Both the position numbers and the translations under genes were made by a program. A stretch of 64,000 nt of DNA from a virus: positions 1-64,000 of IMG/VR virus record IMGVR_UViG_3300009182_000043. One strand, given 5' to 3'. Of this stretch, positions 1,889 to 56,700 are shown one piece after another (the stretch's first letter is position 1; every line of letters starts with the position of its first letter). The notes under the pieces were generated by a model. The model was not told the origin of the DNA, made no database searches, and saw only the letters and a program-made list of their open reading frames with translations.

Positions 1889-1896
1889 TATTTATA
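1889..1896 (-). promoter_or_regulatory. T4-type late promoter TATAAATA
   Basis: Exact T4 late consensus on the minus strand, 16 nt upstream of ATG 1872. Confidence 0.7.
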
Positions 1897-39602: not shown

Positions 39603-40433
39603 ATGAGTATTGAAAACAACCCGTTAAAGCAGTATTTCCGCCGCCCAAGTATCTATTTAAAGTTACCTAGCGGGGGATTAGGGTATGAGTTTGGTGTTAT
39701 TGACATGCCCGAAACAAAAGAATTACCAGTGTATCCAATGACAGCAATTGATGAGATTACTAGCAAAACCCCAGACGCATTGTATAACGGATCCGCTGTT
39801 ACAGATATTATTAAAAGCTGTGTACCCGCGATAAAAGAGCCATGGAAAATAACCACAGTTGACTTAGATGCTATTTTAGTTGCAATACGTATTGCAACCA
39901 ATGGTAGCGAAATGGATATGGAAACTACATGCCCTAGTTGCAGTGAGGAAAGCAAATATGGAGTTAATCTAAGTATTGTATTGAATAGTTTCAAAGCAGG
40001 GGACTACGAATCAGGATTGACTCTCAATGATTTAAAAATTAAATTTAAACCATTAAATTATAAATCATTGTCTCAAAGTAGTGTGAGACAATTTGAAATT
40101 CAAAAAGCTATTATGTCAATTGACAGAATGGAAGATGGTCCTGATCGTGAAGCTAAATCAATGGATCTGTTAAAAGTTATAACCGATTCTACGTTAGATG
40201 TATTAGTCAACACGATTGATTATATTGCTACACCCGACGCAATTGTAAATGACCGTATTTTCATCGTTGAGTTTTTGCAAAACACAGACAAAAAGACATT
40301 TGAAACTATTAAAGACTATAGTGTCAATTTACGTGAAAGCACACAAACTAAACCCCTACAAATCAAATGCATACATTGTTCACATGAGTATGAACAATTA
40401 TTTACATTGAACGTAAGCGATTTTTTCGCTTAA
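39603..40433 (+). CDS. Baseplate hub/tail assembly chaperone, T4 gp26-like
   Basis: LKLPSGG, PMTAIDE, DLDAILVAIRIAT, two CxxC pairs (CPSC, CIHC), ends DFFA; RBS AGGAG. Confidence 0.75.
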   Translation: MSIENNPLKQYFRRPSIYLKLPSGGLGYEFGVIDMPETKELPVYPMTAIDEITSKTPDALYNGSAVTDIIKSCVPAIKEPWKITTVDLDAILVAIRIATNGSEMDMETTCPSCSEESKYGVNLSIVLNSFKAGDYESGLTLNDLKIKFKPLNYKSLSQSSVRQFEIQKAIMSIDRMEDGPDREAKSMDLLKVITDSTLDVLVNTIDYIATPDAIVNDRIFIVEFLQNTDKKTFETIKDYSVNLRESTQTKPLQIKCIHCSHEYEQLFTLNVSDFFA

Positions 40434-40463
40434 GGCTTCTATACCTCGATCCCGAGGGTATGG
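40421..40463 (+). other. Putative programmed -1 ribosomal frameshift signal
   Basis: In-phase heptamer T_TTT_TTC (40421-40427); -1 frame open into the 40460 ORF; downstream hairpin 40439-40463. Confidence 0.7.
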
Positions 40464-40657
40464 GTAAGCTGTTTGATGGAATGGAACGGGAGACTAAAGC
40501 TATTAAAAAGAACTCCGCAAGAATAGCTTGGTATATGCGTGGGGCGTTGACCTATGAGGATGTACTAAATCTTAGTCCAGACGAATTAAAATCAGTTAAT
40601 GAAATCATTGAAGAAAACTTAGAGACTACTAAGAAAACACAGATGCCGTTCTTCTAA
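40421..40657 (+). CDS. -1 frame extension of the chaperone (gp51-like small ORF)
   Basis: Reads FFRLRLLYLDPEG-MGKLFDG...WYMRG.LTYED...KKTQMPFF; no Shine-Dalgarno before ATG 40460. Confidence 0.7.
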   Translation, partial: FFRLRLLYLDPEGMGKLFDGMERETKAIKKNSARIAWYMRGALTYEDVLNLSPDELKSVNEIIEENLETTKKTQMPFF

Positions 40658-40711
40658 TCCATGGAATGTCATTTGATAATCTTAGGGTTAGTATTGTGTT
40701 CATTCATTGGG

Positions 40712-40804
40712 AGATGAACTGCGTTCATCTAAGTACTCGCTATCGCTCGTCCTTATTTGTTTTACGGTCTTTTAGTTTAATTAATTGTAATTTGTTTATT
40801 TGTA
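40712..40804. other. AT-rich tract with short hairpins, origin-like element
   Basis: Hairpin AGATGAAC/GTTCATCT (40712-40730); GAGCGATAGCGAG on the minus strand; strand-skewed AT tract ~40754-40808. Confidence 0.35.
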
Positions 40805-41172
40805 TTAAGGACTATATTGCCGCTTAGAAAGCCATGGTAGTGCTATTCAGCACTACCAATGGTAAAGGTATGTTTGCCATGCCCGTCGTCCATAGTCATC
40901 TATTCCCCGAATAATCGACTCTTTTTTGTCACTATTCGCCACCGGTTGCTCTGTAGGGTTTACTGGGTCTGTAGTTGAAGCTATTAGGTTCTGCCTAATT
41001 CTTCAGCAACGCATGTTACATATTCGCAAGATAAAGTAAAATATGTACTCATTGAAGGTTCGCTTTGACGAGAGCCTTCTCGGTGTTCCATGTTATTGCT
41101 AACATGCATACTCCAGAATCCAACGGCACAGCACAATCTGTACAGTCTCAAGGAGGACTTGCAACCAAGCCT
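40805..41172 (-). ncRNA. Putative large structured non-coding RNA of unknown family (~350-370 nt)
   Basis: No ORF; GC-richer than flanks; long-range 5'/3' closing helices plus at least 7 local stems; most G-U pairs and a GCAA tetraloop work on the minus strand. Confidence 0.65.
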
Positions 41173-41180
41173 ACGAATTT

Positions 41181-41741
41181 TTAAATATTAATAGTAAGTG
41201 TGGACTTTGTGTCTGTATTTTCAATTGACTTTGTGTCTGCTGAATATGTTTGTACTAATTTGGTATTGTGTTTAAAGAATAAATCGAATTCCATGAGGTA
41301 CCAATCACCAAACTTTTCGCTTCCGTAAAAGAAAAAATTATCGGTGATCCATGTTAGCTTGCATTGCACAGCAACATAACGACCCTTACGATTAAACTTC
41401 ATAAACAGAATGTTTAAATCGTCTGGATCGGCTACATCAAGTAGTTGTTCTAACCAAGAATCCAATATTTTGTGTTCACCTGATAATAACAAGTGAAAAG
41501 GAAAATCAGCGTAAAACTTGCATTCTACGTTCATCTTCGGAAAGCTTTGTCCGGGCACAATATCACCCTTAAAGCTACGAATCTGACCTTCATGTAGAAT
41601 CTGTGTTCTAGATTGATTCTTGCCACCAACGTAAGCACCGGAACCAGGGGCACGAATAAAGCTTTCACTATATTTTTCGCTTAGATATTTTGCGATTTCT
41701 CGCTCAAACCCTGATCCTTTGTTCTTACTCGGTGATGGCAT
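41181..41741 (-). CDS. PD-(D/E)XK nuclease, Holliday junction resolvase (Hjc-like)
   Basis: SKNKGSGFEREIA...RAPGSGA...GDIV...NVECK; likely start MPSPSK at 41741. Confidence 0.8.
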   Translation of the reverse strand: MPSPSKNKGSGFEREIAKYLSEKYSESFIRAPGSGAYVGGKNQSRTQILHEGQIRSFKGDIVPGQSFPKMNVECKFYADFPFHLLLSGEHKILDSWLEQLLDVADPDDLNILFMKFNRKGRYVAVQCKLTWITDNFFFYGSEKFGDWYLMEFDLFFKHNTKLVQTYSADTKSIENTDTKSTLTINI

Positions 41742-41748
41742 AGACATA

Positions 41749-41756
41749 TACTTATC
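41749..41756 (-). promoter_or_regulatory. Variant late promoter GATAAGTA
   Basis: One mismatch to the GATAAATA motif, 7 nt from ATG 41741. Confidence 0.45.
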
Positions 41757-41777
41757 TCTTGTGTGCAACTTTCAAAA

Positions 41778-43850
41778 TTATTCTACGTCTACTGCTGTAC
41801 TATATGTGGTAAAGCCATTTTCTTTCACGACTTTCAATACGCTAGGAACTCGTCCGGCTAATTCTTCACGATGACTAACAAGCCAAATAGACTTATGTCG
41901 TCTACGTGACATGTCCTTAAGAATAGCAATAGCGTTTTCAACACCCATTGTGTCTAGCCCACTGTCAATCAATTCGTCAATAAACAATGTATTGATTGGT
42001 GCATATAAGTTCTCCCAAACATCACGAAAAGCAAAACTCAAGCCTAGAATCAACCGATTACGTTCACCACGACTTAAATTGTCAAAGTCAAGTTCACGGC
42101 CCAACTCAGTAATTTCAACTGTTAAATCATTTTGAAATACTACTTGATGTGGTAAGCCAATCTTATCTAAGTAATGTGTTAAGCGACTATTCAAATATGA
42201 CAGATTTTGGTCAATGATTTTCTTACGTACAAAACTATCTTTGCTAGTTAAAATATCTAACAAAAACTTTTGATGTTCCATAGTCTTAGTTAGTTTATTG
42301 ATTGCTTCAAAATCAATTGCTTGCAACGCATTACTTTCCATCTCTGTAACCTGTTCAGCATATGGATCAGACTCAGCAGCCTTAGTTTCAATTTGCTGTA
42401 ACAACCCTGATACTTTGCTACGATGTTCAATCGCTTGTGCTTCTGTATCATAATGCGTAACTGGCATAGGACCCACTTCAACCGAGGTAAGTTCTGCTAA
42501 TTGTTCAGCATATGGATCAACTTCTTTTTCTTTTTCAAGAATCTTTGTACGAATGTTTTCTGCATCACTACCATGACGAATTGCTTCTGCTTCTGTCTTG
42601 TAATGTGTCTTAGGCTTATCTCCCAATACAATGTCTTTATCGTTTAATTCTTTTAATTGATTCAACAGTGTAGTAACATGAAATTGTGCATCTTCTAGCA
42701 TCTTTTCTTTATCTGCTAGAACCTTAGCGTGTTGTTCGTCATGGAAATCTTGACCGCAAGCATAACATTGATGTGCTAACAACTTTATAATTTCAACATT
42801 TAATTTCTCAATTAACTTGTTTTCTTTATCAATGTCCTTATTGATTCGTGCAACTTCTTTGTCTCTGTCTGCAATTTCTTTTGACTTGTTATTATACTCA
42901 ACCAAGGCACGATGTGCTAAGATTTCTTGTACGATATCTATTCTGGTTAGTTTTTCTGCTTGATTTAATAAGTCAGTAACATCTTTATCTTGCTTTTGCT
43001 TCCAAGCAGTTTGTCTAGCCAATAATGCATTATATGTATCTTGTTGTTTCTTCTTTTGATTCCAGATTACTAACTCTTTATGTGCTAGTAATTCACTATC
43101 AATATCAATTTGTGACAGTTCATCATATTGTGCAACTAAGTATGCTAAGTCATTTTCATGTTTCTTTTGCCAAAGCCCTTGTCTGCGCTTTAAACTTTCA
43201 ATTTGTTCTTTTACTCGCTTGTTGGCTTCTTCAATAGCTTTGACTTTAAATTCTTCACCTTGAATACTATCTTTAGTATCTTTCAACAGTACCTTAATTG
43301 TTTCTGCTTTTTCAGAAAGTAAAGTAATACCTAACAACTGTTCAATGATTTCACGTTGTTCGTTATTTTTTAATGCTAAAAATGGTTCTGAATATGTATT
43401 CAATGCTACGATATGACGAAACATGCTACTAGACATACACAATACTTTTTCAATTGCTACTTGTGTTTCTTTGTTCTCACCCTGTGCATCGTCCGTACCT
43501 TTTTGTAAATCATTATTTACATAAAATCGTAATAGATTTGGCTTACGACCACGCTCAATCTTATAGTCAATGCCACCAACACTGAATTCAAGTGTAACTA
43601 GCATACCCTTTCCATTTGTACGATTAACTAAATTATCTTTTCTGATACTGTTAATGGGTACACCAAACAATGCATATGATAGACCTTGAATAAGACTGGT
43701 CTTACCTGTACCATTACGAGCACCGTCACCACCTAAGTCTAAGTTCTCACCTAGAATAAGTGTTAAGTCTTGTCGGTTAAAATCAACTGCTTGTGTGACT
43801 TGACCAATTGATAGAAAGTTTCGTAATGTAATGTTCTTTAATAATATCAT
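41778..43850 (-). CDS. gp46: Recombination endonuclease ATPase subunit (Rad50/SbcC-like)
   Basis: Walker A NGTGKT; CYAC zinc hook; LSRGE signature; LFIDE Walker B; VSH. Confidence 0.95.
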   Translation of the reverse strand: MILLKNITLRNFLSIGQVTQAVDFNRQDLTLILGENLDLGGDGARNGTGKTSLIQGLSYALFGVPINSIRKDNLVNRTNGKGMLVTLEFSVGGIDYKIERGRKPNLLRFYVNNDLQKGTDDAQGENKETQVAIEKVLCMSSSMFRHIVALNTYSEPFLALKNNEQREIIEQLLGITLLSEKAETIKVLLKDTKDSIQGEEFKVKAIEEANKRVKEQIESLKRRQGLWQKKHENDLAYLVAQYDELSQIDIDSELLAHKELVIWNQKKKQQDTYNALLARQTAWKQKQDKDVTDLLNQAEKLTRIDIVQEILAHRALVEYNNKSKEIADRDKEVARINKDIDKENKLIEKLNVEIIKLLAHQCYACGQDFHDEQHAKVLADKEKMLEDAQFHVTTLLNQLKELNDKDIVLGDKPKTHYKTEAEAIRHGSDAENIRTKILEKEKEVDPYAEQLAELTSVEVGPMPVTHYDTEAQAIEHRSKVSGLLQQIETKAAESDPYAEQVTEMESNALQAIDFEAINKLTKTMEHQKFLLDILTSKDSFVRKKIIDQNLSYLNSRLTHYLDKIGLPHQVVFQNDLTVEITELGRELDFDNLSRGERNRLILGLSFAFRDVWENLYAPINTLFIDELIDSGLDTMGVENAIAILKDMSRRRHKSIWLVSHREELAGRVPSVLKVVKENGFTTYSTAVDVE

Positions 43851-44068
43851 TTTAATTTTCTAAAAAAACTGTCTTTGGATGATTTCTCAGCCTGCAACGT
43901 TCGTTCTATTATGCCTTCTAATTTCAGTTTAACTGAAATCAACGTCTTTTGTTCTCTTAAGCTACCTAAGTAAGAATGAGTATTAGTCAACTCAGATAAA
44001 GCAATACCTAAATGCTTGTTTACTTTAATCAACGATTCTAATTCTCTAACTTCTCTGGGTATCTTCAT
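43847..44068 (-). CDS. Hypothetical protein, 73 aa
   Basis: Overlaps the gp47 stop and gp46 start by 4 nt each, implying translational coupling. Confidence 0.7.
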   Translation of the reverse strand: MKIPREVRELESLIKVNKHLGIALSELTNTHSYLGSLREQKTLISVKLKLEGIIERTLQAEKSSKDSFFRKLK

Positions 44069-45078
44069 AGGTTATTGTAAATCTCTAACAAAATTCGTTT
44101 ATCAAATGTGTTTGATTCAATGCTGTTAATCTGGTCGATGACAATCTGGTCTACACTTTCAAACTTAAGACCATCAAATCCTTGATTCTCTCTTTGTTCA
44201 ACCTTCATAGGTATCAATGTCATCTCACGTAGTTTGTGTTCTGGTATCATAGTTTCACGTATGAAGTTTGCTTCTTCATAGCTAATATCAATATCAAGAT
44301 GTACTCTAACATGACTGTCAATTAATAGCAACCCTTCAGGGTTTTCTAAGATATCACTAAGTTTATGTACTCTAAATATGGGCTGTCTTGGCCAACTATG
44401 AAAGACTGGTTCAACTCCCCATTCCAATATCATCATGCCACGTGCATCATCACCTGCATCAGCATAGTTATGTGGGAAAGCATTACCGATATACCAAATG
44501 TTTTTCTTTGCTTGTCGTTTATGAAAATGCCCACTGAATACTTTATCAAAGCCAGTAAAATGTTCACTACTAATTTCACCATGATCGGGCATCTCTACCA
44601 TAGCATTCATGTAGAAACTTGGTAATTCAAAATGACCAAACATATATTTGCCAGATAATTTTTGAACTTTCTTATAGTCATCTTGTACAAGCCAAGGTGC
44701 AATAACAACATCACCTTGACTAAACCAATCATTAACGATTGTCACGTTAGGTAAATGTCTAGCCCATTCAACTGAATGAATGTCTCGCTTGTCTCTATAA
44801 TAAAGGTCATGATTGCCGGGTATAAAGAATACTTGGTCAAATGAAGCACTTAATTTCTCAAGTGCTTGTAGACCAAAGGTCAATGTGTGAATATTAATAC
44901 TAGCACGGTGATGATTGTAATCACCTAAAAAGAAACAGGTTTCACAACCCTCTTCTTTTGCTTTTTTAATAAACCAGTCTACAAAATTAGCACAGTCTTG
45001 ATTGTGCTGTAAACTGTTGCTCTTAAGTCCAAAATGAATGTCAGTAAAAACTGCGGCTTTTTTGAAAAGGTTAGTCAT
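44065..45078 (-). CDS. gp47: Recombination endonuclease nuclease subunit (Mre11/SbcD-like); start corrected to 45078
   Basis: DIHFG, LGD, GNHD, GHFE, SGHFH metallophosphoesterase motifs. Confidence 0.95.
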   Translation of the reverse strand: MTNLFKKAAVFTDIHFGLKSNSLQHNQDCANFVDWFIKKAKEEGCETCFFLGDYNHHRASINIHTLTFGLQALEKLSASFDQVFFIPGNHDLYYRDKRDIHSVEWARHLPNVTIVNDWFSQGDVVIAPWLVQDDYKKVQKLSGKYMFGHFELPSFYMNAMVEMPDHGEISSEHFTGFDKVFSGHFHKRQAKKNIWYIGNAFPHNYADAGDDARGMMILEWGVEPVFHSWPRQPIFRVHKLSDILENPEGLLLIDSHVRVHLDIDISYEEANFIRETMIPEHKLREMTLIPMKVEQRENQGFDGLKFESVDQIVIDQINSIESNTFDKRILLEIYNNL

Positions 45079-45084
45079 TCGTAT

Positions 45085-45114
45085 ATTATATAGGAAACGG
45101 AGGTGCAAAAGCAA
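45085..45114 (-). promoter_or_regulatory. Sigma70-like early/middle promoter
   Basis: TTGCTT-18 nt-TATAAT, 6 nt before the gp47 ATG. Confidence 0.6.
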
Positions 45115-45128
45115 CTCCGTTGGTTAAA

Positions 45129-46034
45129 TTATTCTTCGTAGACGGTAGAACTAGTTCCAACACCTTGGCGTGACCAGCTTGGATTAAGCCCGTTCATTTC
45201 TAAAATATCATCACGGATATTTTGATTGCGCTTTTCGGTGTTCAATACACGACAGAAACTATTAGTAATAGCCGCTGTATAATATGCAAATGGGTTTGCC
45301 GATTTAGCTTCATTGAAACGTAAGCCAACATATGTAAGTTGTAGAATGGCTGAATTACGCATCTCATCATTGTATGTGTACCCGCGCCAATTAAACTTCA
45401 TTGCGTATTTTTCACATAACATAATGTACATACGGGCAAGCTTGTTGGTGATATTTCCATGATCCTTACCAAACTCACCGTTTTCTAAATCACCTTTCCA
45501 ATGACTTTTTCCGATAACTCTGAAAGTGTTTGTGCTATCTAAGCGGAAGTGCTGAAACGGCGGGAAGTTGACTTTAACATGTACCATGTCGTCAACTTCT
45601 TTAGCAGTAGTAGGATCTTCTAAGTCAGCAAAAATCTCATCAGCATCGCCCTCGTATTCAAAGATATCTTTAGCAGTTTTCTTTTTGTCTACCTTACGTG
45701 GTTGTTTGGGTGCGACCGGAATATGATCCCAAGTCATTACTCTAAACACTAAGTCTGTTGTAGGAATAGATATTGGATCAGTCGTGCCTTTAGCAATACC
45801 CTGCTCAACATCCAATCTTTCAGCACGATTTTCACGTGCTAACTGAATGTTTTCTGGCTTGTATGCGTATTCTAAGCTTTGGGGAATGCTAGCTTGGGGC
45901 ATATCCACGATAAAATCATATCTATGGTCTGTGTCTGCTAGAAAAGTGCAATATGAGTTTTTGCTACTGTGAATCTCTTTTAAAATGTCTTTATTATTTA
46001 AATAATTTACTGGTTTTTTAGTTATGATAGTCAT
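45129..46034 (-). CDS. gp55: Late-transcription sigma factor
   Basis: YLNNKD, NWRGYTYNDEM, FNEAKSANPFAYYT...SF.R....EK motifs; adjacent to gp47/46 as in T4-like phages. Confidence 0.9.
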   Translation of the reverse strand: MTIITKKPVNYLNNKDILKEIHSSKNSYCTFLADTDHRYDFIVDMPQASIPQSLEYAYKPENIQLARENRAERLDVEQGIAKGTTDPISIPTTDLVFRVMTWDHIPVAPKQPRKVDKKKTAKDIFEYEGDADEIFADLEDPTTAKEVDDMVHVKVNFPPFQHFRLDSTNTFRVIGKSHWKGDLENGEFGKDHGNITNKLARMYIMLCEKYAMKFNWRGYTYNDEMRNSAILQLTYVGLRFNEAKSANPFAYYTAAITNSFCRVLNTEKRNQNIRDDILEMNGLNPSWSRQGVGTSSTVYEE

Positions 46035-53734: not shown

Positions 53735-56700
53735 ATGGCCACAAGTTCTAGACAATCAACAATATTTGGTACCAATGATTGGAAAACCATCTATAAAACT
53801 TTCAGTCAAGCTGATTTCCAAAGCTACGACTATGAAACTCTGCGTAAAACTTTTGTAGATTATCTAAGAACTCACTATCCAGAGACTTTTAATGACTATA
53901 CCGAGAGTTCAGAGTATATAGCATTGTTGGATATTATTGCGTTCATGGGGCAAAGCTTAAGTTTCCGTGACGATTTAAATACACGTGAAAATTTTATTGA
54001 CACAGCAGAACGCCGTGATAGTGTTATTAAACTAGCAAATTTAATTGGGTATAGCCCAAAAAGAAATTTGTCCTCTGAGGGCTTTTTAAAAATAGTAGGA
54101 ATTAGAACTACTGAAAATATAAGTGATATTAATGGGGCTAATTTGGGTGGTAGGACAATCACCTGGAATGATCCGTCAAATGGTAATTGGCAAGAGCAAT
54201 TCAATACTGTTTTAAATGCGGCTTTAATTAATTCGCAAAGAATTGGTCGTCCCGGAAATACAACTACGGTGTTGGGAATTAAAACTAGCGAATATAGTAT
54301 TCAAATACCAGCAGATGCACTACCTGTAGTACCCTTCAATGCTACAGTTAGCGGAACTACAATGAACTTTGAATTAGTTAGTTCCAGCACTGTTGGAAAA
54401 GATTATATCTATGAATTGCCACCAAAAGCAAACGGAATATTTAATATATTGTACAGAAATGATAACTTAGGTTACGGAGGATCAAATACCGGATTCTTTA
54501 TGTATTTTAAACAAGGCACATTAAAGACTCAAAATTTTTCTTTGTCACAAAAATTATCAAATCAGATAGTCAGCGTAAACATTGAAAATATTAATGATAA
54601 TGATGTTTGGTTATTTAAAATTGATCCTGTAACAGGGGAACTAACCGAGTGGAAAAAAGTTGATAATATTTTTAACAACACATATTCATTATCTAACAAG
54701 AATAATAACCAAGTATTCTCTGTTGGCTCAAGATTTAACGACCAGATAAATTATATATTTGGTGATGGTGTGTTTGGTGAAATACCAATTGGAAACTTTA
54801 GAGGATATGTAAGAGCAGGTAACTCACTTCAATATAATATTGATCCAAGTGAAATTCAAGGAACCGCTGTTTCTTTTAGTTATGTTAGTAAAACTAATAG
54901 AGTTGAAACGTTAACAATAACTCTACAGCTAACACAACCTGTAACCAATGCACAAACACGTGAACCAATATCAGATATTAAATTACGTGCTCCCACAAGA
55001 TACTATACACAAAATCGTATGGTAAATGGTGAAGATTATAACGTATTCCCAAAAACATTGTACAGTAGTGTATTAAAAAGTAAAGCATTGAATCGTAGCA
55101 GTATTGGAACTTCACGCAACTATGATTTATTAGACCCAACTGCAAAATATTCAAGTGTTAGTGCATTTGCTGAAGATGGTGCATTGTATCAGAAAACTGA
55201 CAATGAGTTTAGAACATTTACACTAGAAAGAGGAACAACAAGTGTGATAAGTTTTTTAACTAATAACTTGTTGTCTATATTATCTAACCATAAAATGTCA
55301 CAGTTTTACATTTCTAACGCAAACAGATTTTCACCAACTACAAGAGATTCAATAACTGGTCAACCAATTTATAATGTATGGAAACAAACTTCATACAACT
55401 ATACAAATATTACAGGTTATTTCAATATTAGTGATACTGCCGTACCTGTAGGAATATATACTACTGGAAATATGAAATATTGTACTACAGGAGCATACAT
55501 TAAATTTATTGCACCTAGTGGATATGTTTTTCAAAACAATAAATTAATTCCAAAATTATCACAACCCGGAGACGTTACATATCTTTGGGCTACTGTTGTT
55601 GATGTTGTGAATGACGGATACAACGGAGGTTTGGGTAATTTAGCTTCTGGATTGGGTCCAATTACACTTAGCCATAATATACCATCAGGTTCAATAGTAG
55701 ACACAATCATTCCGGTGTTTGATAATATTGTTCCTGCTATCTTAATTCAAAATGCAATAGCACGTTGTAACATAAATCAAAGTTTTTCTTTAATGTATAA
55801 CAATTCATTATCATTGAATGATCCAAATAGATGGACAATTTTTGATTATTCAGAAACTAATTTCTTAGTTAACTTTAAAAGTTTAGGTAATGGTTTGTAC
55901 TCAGTAACCAATAAAGCACTATCATTTTACTTTGGTAGTGTTAATGATACAAGATTTTCTTTTGATAAAACAAAGATTATATACGATCCACTTAGTGGAA
56001 AATCAACTTATGATACTATAAGAATTTTAAAAACAAACTCACTTCCAAGTTCAAATTCATCTTTCTCGTCTGATATATATTTGGCTGTAGTAGGACAACC
56101 AGTAGAATCTGATGGTTATGTGGATGATTATTCTGTAGAAGTTAGCATTTTAGACCCAGAAAATAATCAAATTATTGGTAATCCTGATTTTTTTGATGAC
56201 GTTACTGCATACAAGAGTGTACCAAACGCTTTTGTGTTTGTTGAAAAAATAATTGATTACAATTTATTAAACAAATTCAAAATCATCCCTAGTACAAATA
56301 TTGAAACCAGCTACGGTACATTGAATCAAATTCAAAATGTAAAATACTTATACGAAATAGGTCAGCGTTTTTATGCATTTTTAGATAAAAAATATTATCA
56401 AACTGCAATTGATTCTACTTCTGCTAATTTTATATTAGTAAATGAAATAAGTGGTATTTATAATTATTCAGGAAGACAAGGACTGTATTTTCAATACAAA
56501 CATAACAGCAGTAGTACTTCTAGAATTAATCCTGCAACCACAAATATTATAGATATGTACCTTGTGACTCAATCATATTATATACAATATAATCAATGGA
56601 TCACTGATACTACCGGTAAAGTTGTTGAACCAACTGCACCTACAATAAATGAGTTAGCACAAAGCTATGGTAAAATAGAAAATTATAAAATGTTAAGTGA

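What the first reader, a model, noticed from the sequence alone, without database searches (positions are those of the whole stretch)
40805..41172. Unassigned ~350-nt highly structured RNA downstream of the resolvase gene
Seen: the 520-nt gap between converging operons has no ORF yet is dense with helices. On the minus strand the ends pair long-range: UUGAGACUGUA (41151-41141) with UAUAGUCCUUAA (40816-40805), and GCCGUUGGA (41127-41119) with UCUAAGCGGC (40828-40819). These enclose CAUGUUA-GCAA-UAACAUG (41106-41089, GNRA loop), GAAGG/CCUUC (41079-41054), UACAUAUU/AAUAUGUA (41047-41017), a GUUGCU/AGCAAC branch with inner hairpin (41010-40945), CGAAUAGUGAC/GUCGAUUAUUCG (40938-40908) and a 10-bp hairpin (40858-40835). 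A further hairpin lies 5' of the closing helix (41172-41155). G-U pairs in the closing helices work only on the minus strand. Inference: a phage-encoded multi-domain ncRNA co-transcribed with gp55-gp47-gp46-resolvase. Short segments (AGUAAACCCUACAGAGCAA, AUAGAUGACU) echo RNase P RNA, but its hallmark GAGGAAAGUCC is absent, so it may be a new class.
Basis: partly seen in the sequence, partly recalled or inferred. Interest (0 to 1): 0.85.

Follow-up and report, generated by a model that had tools for sequence, protein, structure and literature searches.

The report
Knotted structured RNA of jumbo phages
The gene-free gap behind a small nuclease gene of this uncultured lake-water giant T4-like phage encodes a real, intricately knotted RNA of about 360 bases that hundreds of related phages keep; it is a far relative of an orphan catalogued motif (Polynucleobacter-1), and its job is still unknown.

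Summary
The finding is real. The minus strand of about 41171-40811 encodes a conserved structured non-coding RNA. The homologous stretch follows the nuclease gene in all 80 related loci fetched, and 114 further IMG/VR loci share the synteny. The central domain is 92% paired (77.5% shuffled, 32-41% slid), and 33 of 40 pairs change on both sides. There is no period-3 signal, and G-U pairs outnumber A-C 4:1.

Its two long-range closing helices do not hold in relatives. The RNA is instead locked by two pseudoknots that share the strand 40907-40896, a CUCC/GGAG helix and an apparent base triple. Two distant positions always carry the same base, which is unexplained.

Rfam gives no match, and RNase P RNA, tmRNA and introns are rejected. 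The RNA is not wholly new. Sister phages carry a true Polynucleobacter-1 RNA (RF01718) in the same slot, and my model of the central domain matches directly 3' of it in 12 of 21 such loci. This is therefore a new, uncatalogued variant of a phage RNA superfamily.

Function is unknown. My best guess is a trans-acting, protein-binding folded RNA made as the tail of the gp55-gp47-gp46-nuclease operon. The scan has met this RNA before on other genomes.

The parts
40811..41171 (-). Core of the structured non-coding RNA (about 361 nt), type A of the superfamily
   Evidence: Conserved in all 80 loci fetched with the nuclease and in 114 pattern-fetched IMG/VR loci. RNAalifold finds compensatory changes in 47 of 79 pairs. 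Not coding.
41156..41171 (-). P1 hairpin, which starts within about 10 nt of the nuclease stop codon
   Evidence: 92% paired, with up to 5 pair types per position. The stop-to-CCUCC distance is 8-48 nt.
41111..41155 (-). P2: CUCC (41155-41152) pairs with GGAG (41114-41111) and encloses hairpin P3 (41147-41122)
   Evidence: P2 is 100% paired, with C-G changed to U-A in 4 relatives (2 independent events). In P3, 41147-41122 is 100% paired as G-C, A-U or G-U.
41089..41106 (-). P4 hairpin with a GNRA-type tetraloop (GCAA in the window)
   Evidence: Stem pairs show 3-5 pair types. The loop is GCAA, GUAA, GCGA or GUGA in most relatives.
40940..41085 (-). Central domain. P5 (41085-41081/40944-40940) closes a four-way junction of P6 (41079-41054), P7 (41052-41013) and P8 (41010-40945), with linkers of 0-2 nt
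   Evidence: the count of structure pairs on A2: 92.3% paired against 77.5% shuffled and 32-41% slid; 33 of 40 pairs change on both sides. Model R1 finds one copy in each of two complete jumbo genomes.
41029..41034 (-). PK-A 5' strand (UUAUCU) in the loop of P7; it pairs with 40901-40896
   Evidence: 98% paired against 35-50% when slid. Each of four pairs changed about 11-14 times in concert on the tree.
40965..40968 (-). PK-B 5' strand (UCCC in relatives, ACCC in the window) inside the P8 domain; it pairs with 40907-40904
   Evidence: 98% paired. The first pair occurs as U-A, A-U, G-C and C-G (16 changes on the tree). The window itself has an A-A mismatch there.
40896..40907 (-). Single strand GGGAAUAGAUGA, which supplies the 3' strands of both pseudoknots
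40957..40957 (-). Third base of an apparent base triple on the last pair of P5 (41085-40940)
   Evidence: 40957 equals 41085 (U/U 90, C/C 22, A/A 16), and both are complementary to 40940.
40908..40938 (-). P9 hairpin
   Evidence: 91% paired, with many compensatory changes.
40832..40862 (-). P10 hairpin, nearly invariant (GGUAGUGC...GCACUACC)
   Evidence: 97% paired. The loop-closing pair switches between U-A and A-U.
40816..40889 (-). Twin boxes GACGG-K-CAUGGCAA (K = 40882) and CAAA-K-CGGCAA (K = 40823)
   Evidence: The two K positions carry the same base (G/G, U/U or C/C) in 58 of 62 representatives, with at least 11 concerted changes. The relation is not Watson-Crick.
40713..40757 (-). Two conserved tail hairpins after an AU-rich, variable linker. 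They may be the 3' end of the primary transcript and/or face-to-face terminators
   Evidence: Conserved in all relatives. They are the only part alike at sequence level in RF01718-type phages (nhmmer E down to 3e-10). The first has tandem G-A/A-G only when read on the minus strand.
41181..41768 (-). PD-(D/E)XK resolvase-like nuclease gene directly upstream
   Evidence: Pfam PF24608 at 8.8e-24; PHROG 'RusA-like Holliday junction resolvase'.

Best explanation
Shown:
- The minus strand of about 41171-40811 encodes a folded non-coding RNA of about 360 nt. The primary transcript may run on to the tail hairpins at 40713, giving about 460 nt.
- It is the 'type A' form of a superfamily of large knotted RNAs. 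These sit directly behind the small nuclease gene that ends the gp55-gp47-gp46 operon of aquatic T4-like jumbo phages.
- The fold has a 5' domain (P1-P4), a four-way junction (P5-P8) and a 3' domain (P9, P10).
- The fold is clamped by two pseudoknots that both use the strand 40907-40896, and by an apparent base triple.

Inferred:
- The RNA is made as the 3' tail of the operon transcript, perhaps trimmed at the AU-rich stretch before P1.
- It acts in trans as a folded RNA. No gene follows it on its strand, so it cannot be a leader or riboswitch.
- The many invariant or nearly invariant nucleotides outside the helices, gathered in junctions, point to a specific binding surface or pocket.

The mechanism I commit to is a stable protein-binding scaffold or decoy RNA that is present while the replication and recombination genes are expressed. 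This functional step is untested.
For: - Conservation and synteny.
- Covariation: 47 of 79 pairs. The central domain is 92.3% paired against 77.5% shuffled, with 33 of 40 pairs changing on both sides.
- Pseudoknots: 98% paired against 28-90% when slid, with 11-16 concerted changes on the tree.
- Not coding.
- Minus strand, from G-U 865 against A-C 205.
- No room for its own promoter, and no late promoter box.
- Converging genes lie downstream.
- One copy per complete 524-kb and 367-kb genome.
- Lake-water RNA libraries hold contigs over 40919-41156 at 21-28x, against about 3-4x on the nuclease gene. One contig bridges the two. This is weak evidence.
- In sister phages the slot keeps a related RNA while the nuclease in front of it is swapped from PD-(D/E)XK to a GIY-YIG type.
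Against: - No experiment or raw-read mapping shows the transcript's ends, strand or abundance. The contigs could stem from DNA in the RNA libraries.
- No partner protein is known.
- PA5oct and SCTP-2 carry a homologous nuclease (42% identity) with no such RNA next to it, so the nuclease does not need the RNA.
- The degree of sequence invariance would fit a ribozyme equally well.
Confidence: 0.45

Rival explanations
1. It is a ribozyme. Examples would be self-processing that frees it from the operon mRNA, or another RNA-catalysed reaction. On this view the knotted core forms an active site rather than a protein-binding surface.
For: - There are many invariant unpaired nucleotides in junctions, a double pseudoknot, a base triple and a GNRA loop. 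These features are typical of ribozyme cores.
- The RNA must be separated from the mRNA if it acts alone, because the stop codon lies 8-48 nt before the CCUCC box.
Against: - No Rfam ribozyme family scores, even at E<=10.
- No conserved cleavage-site signature could be named.
- Large ornate RNAs without known catalysis show the same kind of conservation.
Confidence: 0.15
2. It is a cis-acting 3' untranslated element of the gp55-gp47-gp46-nuclease mRNA. Candidate roles are a decay barrier, a processing signal, or a brake on expression of the potentially toxic nuclease.
For: - It starts within about 10 nt of the nuclease stop codon in every locus, and no insertion ever separates the two. Insertions do occur between gp46 and the nuclease, and between the RNA and the converging genes.
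- The slot keeps a nuclease plus an RNA even where the nuclease fold is swapped.
Against: - Simple hairpins suffice as decay barriers. A 360-nt fold with two pseudoknots and many invariant unpaired bases is far more than that needs.
- Homologous nuclease genes in PA5oct and SCTP-2 have no such tail.
Confidence: 0.15
3. It is an origin or primer transcript. The RNA, or transcription through it, would start DNA replication as at T4 oriF/oriG, with the AU-rich linker as the unwinding element. Another first reader (e1-6104186) and one earlier follow-up (e1-5635830) proposed this.
For: - An AU-rich, variable linker follows the core (40810-40758).
- The locus is a point of converging transcription.
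- The neighbouring genes act in recombination-dependent replication.
Against: - R-loop primers need no conserved tertiary fold, yet here pseudoknots and a base triple are under selection.
- No iterons or direct repeats stood out in the sequence or the alignments; I ran no repeat search.
- The GC-skew shifts at the locus coincide with the change of coding strand.
Confidence: 0.07
4. It is a diverged member of a well-known RNA class: RNase P RNA, tmRNA, a group I or II intron, GOLLD, ROOL or 6S.
For: Its size is similar to that of tmRNA and RNase P RNA.
Against: - cmscan finds no such family at gathering score or at E<=10 in the window and in six diverged relatives.
- ARAGORN finds no tmRNA.
- GAGGAAAGUCC is absent.
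- The RNase-P-like words have other, covariation-backed roles (PK-A, P8/P5).
- There are no flanking exons.
Confidence: 0.03
5. It is not an RNA at all, but a protein-coding stretch or a DNA-level site.
For: Folding z-scores are alike on both strands. Small ORFs exist in the window copy.
Against: - There is no period-3 signal, and 90% of indels are not multiples of 3.
- The small ORFs are not conserved, because the P4 stem that holds the AUG covaries.
- G-U outnumbers A-C.
- The compensatory changes and the base-triple pattern fit a folded single strand.
Confidence: 0.01

Closest known systems
Polynucleobacter-1 RNA motif (Rfam RF01718; Weinberg et al. 2010, Genome Biol 11:R31, PMC2864571, Additional file 1)
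   Same: - Same genomic slot in related T4-like phages: behind a small nuclease gene that follows gp46, facing the converging small ORF and gp26-like hub genes. Seven of seven tested loci are true RF01718 matches at 39-117 bits.
- The paper also notes that the motif lies downstream of a gene with a cyanophage P-SSM2 homologue, and that a 3' half is 'not always detected'.
- My model of the window RNA's central domain (R1) finds its best match directly 3' of the RF01718 match, on the same strand, in 12 of 21 such loci (E down to 3e-7).
- The two tail hairpins are alike at sequence level.
   Different: - The RF01718 model finds nothing in this genome (E<=10) or in five related jumbo genomes (E<=1).
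- Its hallmark box CACUAUCCUUNACAGGACG is absent.
- RF01718 covers only the 5' 141 nt of the sister RNAs. The window RNA has a different 5' domain (P1-P4) in that place.
- The window RNA's 3' domain (model R2) is not found in RF01718-type loci.
- The nuclease in front is mostly a 143-aa SegE-type GIY-YIG protein there, and a PD-(D/E)XK protein here.
Large 'ornate' RNAs of unknown function, some phage-borne (GOLLD RF01998, ROOL RF03087, OLE, raiA)
   Same: It is a large, multi-domain, pseudoknotted RNA with many invariant unpaired nucleotides. It has no known function and is carried by phages.
   Different: There is no sequence or structure match. It is smaller than GOLLD and ROOL (sizes from my own knowledge). 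It sits at one fixed syntenic place behind a nuclease gene.
Bacterial RNase P RNA (RF00010/RF00011)
   Same: It has a similar size, a four-way junction, long-range pseudoknots, a GNRA loop, and short similar words (ACAGA..CCGG, AGAUGA).
   Different: No model match. The CR-I box is absent. The topology differs, and the similar words take part in other helices supported by covariation.
3'-UTR-derived small RNAs and RNA antitoxins that hold a neighbouring nuclease in check (such as ToxI of type III toxin-antitoxin systems)
   Same: It is an RNA encoded next to a nuclease gene, probably cut from the same transcript. Its pseudoknotted fold could bind a protein.
   Different: It is ten times larger and is not repeated. 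The nuclease here is a DNA-junction-type enzyme, not an RNase. No binding has been shown.

Membership tests
Polynucleobacter-1 (RF01718) | Match to the Rfam covariance model at or above 37 bits | tested here: not met
   No match in the window at gathering score, none at E<=10 in 40400-41500 or in the whole 83-kb record, and none at E<=1 in five related jumbo genomes. Positive control: 7 of 7 sister loci score 39-117 bits.
Polynucleobacter-1 (RF01718) | Hallmark box CACUAUCC-UUNACA-GGACG (a small hairpin inside the long-range helix) | tested here: not met
   No match in the window with up to 3 mismatches.
Polynucleobacter-1 (RF01718) | Genomic context: downstream of a small phage gene, in T4-like phages | tested here: met
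   The order gp46, small nuclease, RNA, then converging orf65 and hub genes is the same in both RNA types.
Superfamily that includes the RF01718-bearing RNAs | Shared central domain (P6-P7-P8) | tested here: met
   The best R1 match lies directly 3' of RF01718 on the same strand in 12 of 21 loci. Six of these have E<0.001.
Superfamily that includes the RF01718-bearing RNAs | Shared 3' domain | tested here: not met
   R2 finds nothing in nine RF01718-type loci. Only the tail hairpins are alike.
RNase P RNA | Match to the Rfam models; CR-I box GAGGAAAGUCC forming P4 | tested here: not met
tmRNA | tRNA-like domain plus tag reading frame | tested here: not met
   ARAGORN finds none in the window. 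No Rfam tmRNA match.
Group I/II introns | Match to the intron models; flanking exons of an interrupted gene | tested here: not met
   No Rfam match. The RNA lies after a stop codon and before converging genes.
GOLLD / ROOL / OLE / raiA | Match to the Rfam models | tested here: not met
Riboswitch or leader | A gene downstream on the same strand | tested here: not met
   The next genes converge from the other strand.

The most novel reading that the evidence does not exclude
The conserved four-way junction (P5-P8, linkers of 0-2 nt), held rigid by the two pseudoknots, may be an RNA mimic of a Holliday junction. It would bind and temper the junction-resolving nuclease encoded just upstream. A resolvase made early from the same transcript as gp46/gp47 would then not cut the branched replication intermediates before packaging.

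This would explain why the slot always pairs 'small nuclease + RNA' even where the nuclease fold is swapped. The window and its relatives have a PD-(D/E)XK protein and the RF01718-type phages have a GIY-YIG protein. In Cronobacter phage GAP32 an EndoVII gene borders an 804-nt gap at the same place. The substrate shape stays the same while the enzyme changes.
Probability: 0.1. Interest if true: 0.9.

Novelty: new variant of a known kind. Interest (0 to 1): 0.7.

Why it matters
Large RNAs with conserved tertiary folds are rare, and almost every one studied so far turned out to do something fundamental.

This RNA is present in hundreds of uncultured freshwater jumbo phages, always at one place behind a recombination nuclease. 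Its fold is defined well enough here for structure probing and cryo-EM to start: helices, two pseudoknots, an apparent base triple and two same-base positions.

The link found here also recasts an orphan Rfam motif, which was filed in 2010 as a probable cis-regulator. That motif appears to be the 5' third of a much larger phage RNA from the same superfamily.

If the RNA controls a junction-resolving nuclease, primes replication or is catalytic, it would add a new RNA-based layer to T4-type phage DNA metabolism.

Tried and rejected
- **Rfam, window:** nothing relevant at gathering score in the whole window or at E<=10 in 40400-41500.
- **Rfam, relatives:** nothing relevant at E<=10 in six diverged relatives.
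- **tRNA/tmRNA scan:** none found.
- **Cultured-phage DNA search:** blastn of the gap against 50,697 phage records gave no match.
- **Sequence profile:** an nhmmer profile of the core found nothing in the PA5oct and SCTP-2 loci.
- **Model R1 on cultured phages:** no credible match in the whole PA5oct, SCTP-2, GAP32 and Atu_ph07 records, and none at the syntenic place with filters off.
- **Model R2:** no match either.
- **RF01718 on GAP32 and Atu_ph07:** nothing found. GAP32 does have an 804-nt gene-free gap at the same place.
- **Bacterial genomes:** a central-motif scan of 185,579 genomes gave 62 matches. None is the RNA by R1, so they are chance hits.
- **Promoters and terminators:** the sigma-70-type promoter and intrinsic terminator scans gave nothing useful. 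The conserved (U/A)AUAAAAAU before P1 contains the stop codon and is not a TATAAATA box.
- **A conserved small ORF behind the GGAG box:** rejected, because the AUG lies in the covarying P4 stem.
- **Third partner for the twin positions:** a mutual-information scan of the aligned columns found no third covarying column.
- **Sequencing runs:** only contigs of relatives in lake-water RNA libraries were available, with word shares of 0.05-0.12. They show presence, not strand, ends or level. Parts without cover mean nothing.
- **Literature:** Fremin et al. 2023 (PMC10690425) lists phage candidates of only 29-151 nt and does not describe this RNA. A 2026 preprint on noncoding families has no relevant text.

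Full report
**Context.** The window is 64 kb of an 83-kb IMG/VR virus record. It is a T4-like jumbo myovirus, distantly like Pseudomonas phage PA5oct and Cronobacter phage GAP32.

On the minus strand lie these genes:
- gp55 late sigma factor (45129-46034)
- gp47 (44065-45114)
- gp46 (41778-43850)
- a 195-aa PD-(D/E)XK nuclease (41181-41768; Pfam PF24608; PHROG 'RusA-like Holliday junction resolvase')

From the other side converge a gp26-like baseplate hub gene (39603-40433) and a 65-aa ORF (40460-40657). The 523-nt gap between them has no ORF above 55 aa.

The nuclease protein fetched 307 relatives in IMG/VR. All 80 loci kept carry the gap homologue directly behind the gene, at 70-95% identity over about 470 nt. 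Of these, 114 are true members in the same gene order and four are chance matches.

RNAalifold on 65 distinct sequences predicts 79 pairs, 47 of them with compensatory double changes. On a non-redundant set (65 sequences under 90% identical), the central domain gives these counts:
- 92.3% of cells paired, against 77.5% in column shuffles and 32-41% when partners are slid
- 33 of 40 pairs with changes on both sides
- covariation score 0.40 against 0.16

Column variability has no period-3 signal, and only 10% of indel runs are multiples of three. G-U cells outnumber A-C cells 865 to 205, and most A-C cells lie in the poorly aligned P8a, so the RNA is read from the minus strand.

**Architecture (minus strand, window coordinates).**
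- P1: 41171-41166 with 41161-41156.
- P2: CUCC 41155-41152 with GGAG 41114-41111.
- P3: 41143-41138 with 41131-41126, extended by the covarying pairs 41147-41122 and 41146-41123.
- P4: 41106-41100 with 41095-41089, with a GNRA-type loop.
- P5: 41085-41081 with 40944-40940. It closes a four-way junction.
- P6: 41079-41075 with 41058-41054, plus 41071-41069 with 41062-41060.
- P7: 41052-41050 with 41015-41013, plus 41047-41040 with 41024-41017.
- P8: 41010-41005 with 40950-40945, with a variable inner hairpin.
- P9: 40938-40908.
- P10: 40862-40832.

A mutual-information scan over all column pairs of 143 distinct sequences found two pseudoknots:
- PK-A joins the P7 loop (41034-41029) to 40901-40896.
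- PK-B joins 40968-40965, inside the P8 domain, to 40907-40904.
- Both are 98% paired (PK-A 35-50% when slid; PK-B 28-90%).
- By Fitch parsimony on a FastTree tree, four PK-A pairs and the first PK-B pair each changed 11-16 times, nearly always on both sides together.

Two further patterns appeared:
- Position 40957 carries the same base as 41085 (U/U 90, C/C 22, A/A 16 of 143). Both are complementary to 40940, which is the pattern of a base triple on the last pair of P5.
- Positions 40882 and 40823 lie in two boxes that both end in GGCAA. They carry the same base (G/G, U/U or C/C) in 58 of 62 representatives, with at least 11 concerted changes. No third column covaries with them. I cannot explain this.

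The two 'closing' helices do not hold.
- The outer one is 56-63% paired across the family.
- The GCCG/CGGC core of the second is 96% paired but invariant, and it uses the same letters as P3.
- The two relatives with A at 41127 keep the P3 pair and break the long-range one.
- The extension of the second helix is 24% paired.

The 'RNase P echoes' are the 3' strand of PK-A and the P8/P5 junction. No RNase P, tmRNA, intron, GOLLD or ROOL model scores, even at E<=10.

**Transcription.**
- The nuclease stop codon lies 8-48 nt before the CCUCC box in 66 distinct loci, so any promoter would have to lie inside the gene.
- TATAAATA occurs only twice in the window (11.6 expected). One copy sits in front of a gene; none lies upstream of the RNA.
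- No insertion ever separates the nuclease and the RNA, whereas extra genes are found between gp46 and the nuclease and between the RNA and the converging ORF.
- Contigs from lake-water RNA libraries cover 40919-41156 at 21-28x, against about 3-4x on the nuclease gene. One contig bridges both. These are contigs of relatives and could stem from DNA, so this is only a weak hint.
- Two tail hairpins (40757-40734, 40731-40713) follow an AU-rich variable linker. The first carries tandem G-A/A-G only when read on the minus strand. The plus strand has a U-rich run after it, so the pair may be face-to-face terminators.

**Relation to known RNAs.** Earlier follow-ups of this scan on other genomes named Polynucleobacter-1 (RF01718) as the closest known family. 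I tested this.

Against membership:
- The RF01718 model finds nothing in this genome (E<=10) or in five related jumbo genomes (E<=1).
- Its hallmark box is absent.

For kinship:
- That box fetched 120 IMG/VR loci. Seven of seven tested are true RF01718 matches at 39-117 bits.
- They sit in the same slot. Of the 120 loci, gp46 lies upstream on the same strand in 89, and the converging hub gene follows in 83 and the small ORF in 63.
- The gene just in front is a 143-aa SegE-type GIY-YIG nuclease in the two loci examined. The PD-(D/E)XK type was detected in only 7 of 120.
- My model of the window's central domain (R1) finds its best match directly 3' of the RF01718 match, on the same strand, in 12 of 21 such loci. 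E is 3e-7 in L293, 7e-5 in L300, and below 1e-3 in four more.
- At sequence level only the tail hairpins are alike (nhmmer E down to 3e-10).
- The 3' domain model R2 finds nothing there.

The window RNA is therefore not a member of RF01718. It belongs to the same superfamily, and RF01718 is the 5' third of the sister type. Weinberg et al. had noted a 3' half that was 'not always detected' and a neighbouring gene with a cyanophage homologue.

**Range.**
- R1 finds one copy in each of two complete jumbo genomes of 524 and 367 kb.
- It finds none in PA5oct, SCTP-2, GAP32 or Atu_ph07.
- None of the 62 hits of a motif scan over 185,579 bacterial and archaeal genomes is the RNA.
- PA5oct and SCTP-2 have a homologous nuclease without the RNA.
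- GAP32 has an 804-nt gene-free gap at the same place, next to an EndoVII gene. My models do not match it.

**Function.** Nothing computed here shows what the RNA does.
- It cannot be a leader or riboswitch, because no gene follows on its strand.
- The size of the conserved tertiary fold argues against a mere decay barrier or R-loop primer.
- I commit, at about 45%, to a stable trans-acting protein-binding RNA released from the 3' end of the recombination operon.
- Rivals are a ribozyme (15%), a cis-acting 3' UTR element (15%), an origin transcript (7%), a known class (3%) and no RNA at all (1%); the rest is left open.
- The most novel reading still open (about 10%) is that the four-way junction mimics a Holliday junction and holds the upstream resolvase in check. 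That would fit the swapping of nuclease folds in front of a retained RNA.

**Novelty.** No paper found describes this RNA. Fremin et al. 2023 list only candidates of 29-151 nt. Because of the link to RF01718, I file it as a new variant of a known, though orphan and only partly catalogued, kind. The scan has found the same RNA family before in other genomes. That neither raises nor lowers the score.

Noticed in passing
window 40713-40757: Two tail hairpins are conserved in all relatives and even in the RF01718-type sister phages (nhmmer E down to 3e-10). The first has a GA/AG tandem around a 2-bp stem whose pairs covary (AC/GU to GC/GC). They may be face-to-face terminators or a fourth domain of the RNA.
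   Followed up: partly
window 40882 and 40823: Two positions 59 nt apart always carry the same base (G/G, U/U, C/C), with at least 11 concerted changes. The relation is not Watson-Crick and no third partner was found.
   Followed up: partly
window 40968 with 40904: The window's own copy has an A-A mismatch in pseudoknot PK-B, where its closest relatives (L001-L005) have U-A.
   Followed up: yes
window 1889-1896 and 56455-56462: TATAAATA, the T4 late-promoter box, occurs only twice in 64 kb (11.6 expected by chance). One copy sits 17 nt before the start of the gene at 670-1872. The word seems to be avoided outside promoters.
   Followed up: partly
L125, L140 (oriented +281..+779 and +601..+1099 after the RNA pattern); L168, L176, L180, L189: In some relatives an extra gene is inserted between the RNA and the converging small ORF. 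One is a 165-aa protein starting MTIYLYKKTHNITGLKYLGKT, which looks like a GIY-YIG homing nuclease. Another starts MKIYFNGDSH, which looks like an SGNH hydrolase. The identifications are by eye only.
   Followed up: no
L291 3130-6340: Two radical SAM genes (368 and 523 aa; the first has a weak SPASM match) lie among the genes inserted between gp46 and the small GIY-YIG nuclease in an RF01718-type phage.
   Followed up: no
L389 2107-2910 (Cronobacter phage GAP32, record about 177397-178200): An 804-nt gene-free gap lies at the same syntenic place, between a 58-aa ORF after a hub-like gene and the EndoVII gene next to gp46. Neither R1, R2 nor RF01718 matches it.
   Followed up: partly
L201 1479-2990 (Pseudomonas phage PA5oct, record about 75670-77180): About 1.5 kb between the baseplate hub region and the resolvase gene holds only four annotated ORFs of 38-50 aa. 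It could hide non-coding RNA. R1 gives only a 7-bit match there.
   Followed up: no
L312 7285-7424: A weak R1 match (E 0.008 within that search) lies 5.7 kb from the RF01718 match of the same 328-kb contig. It may be a second, diverged copy.
   Followed up: no
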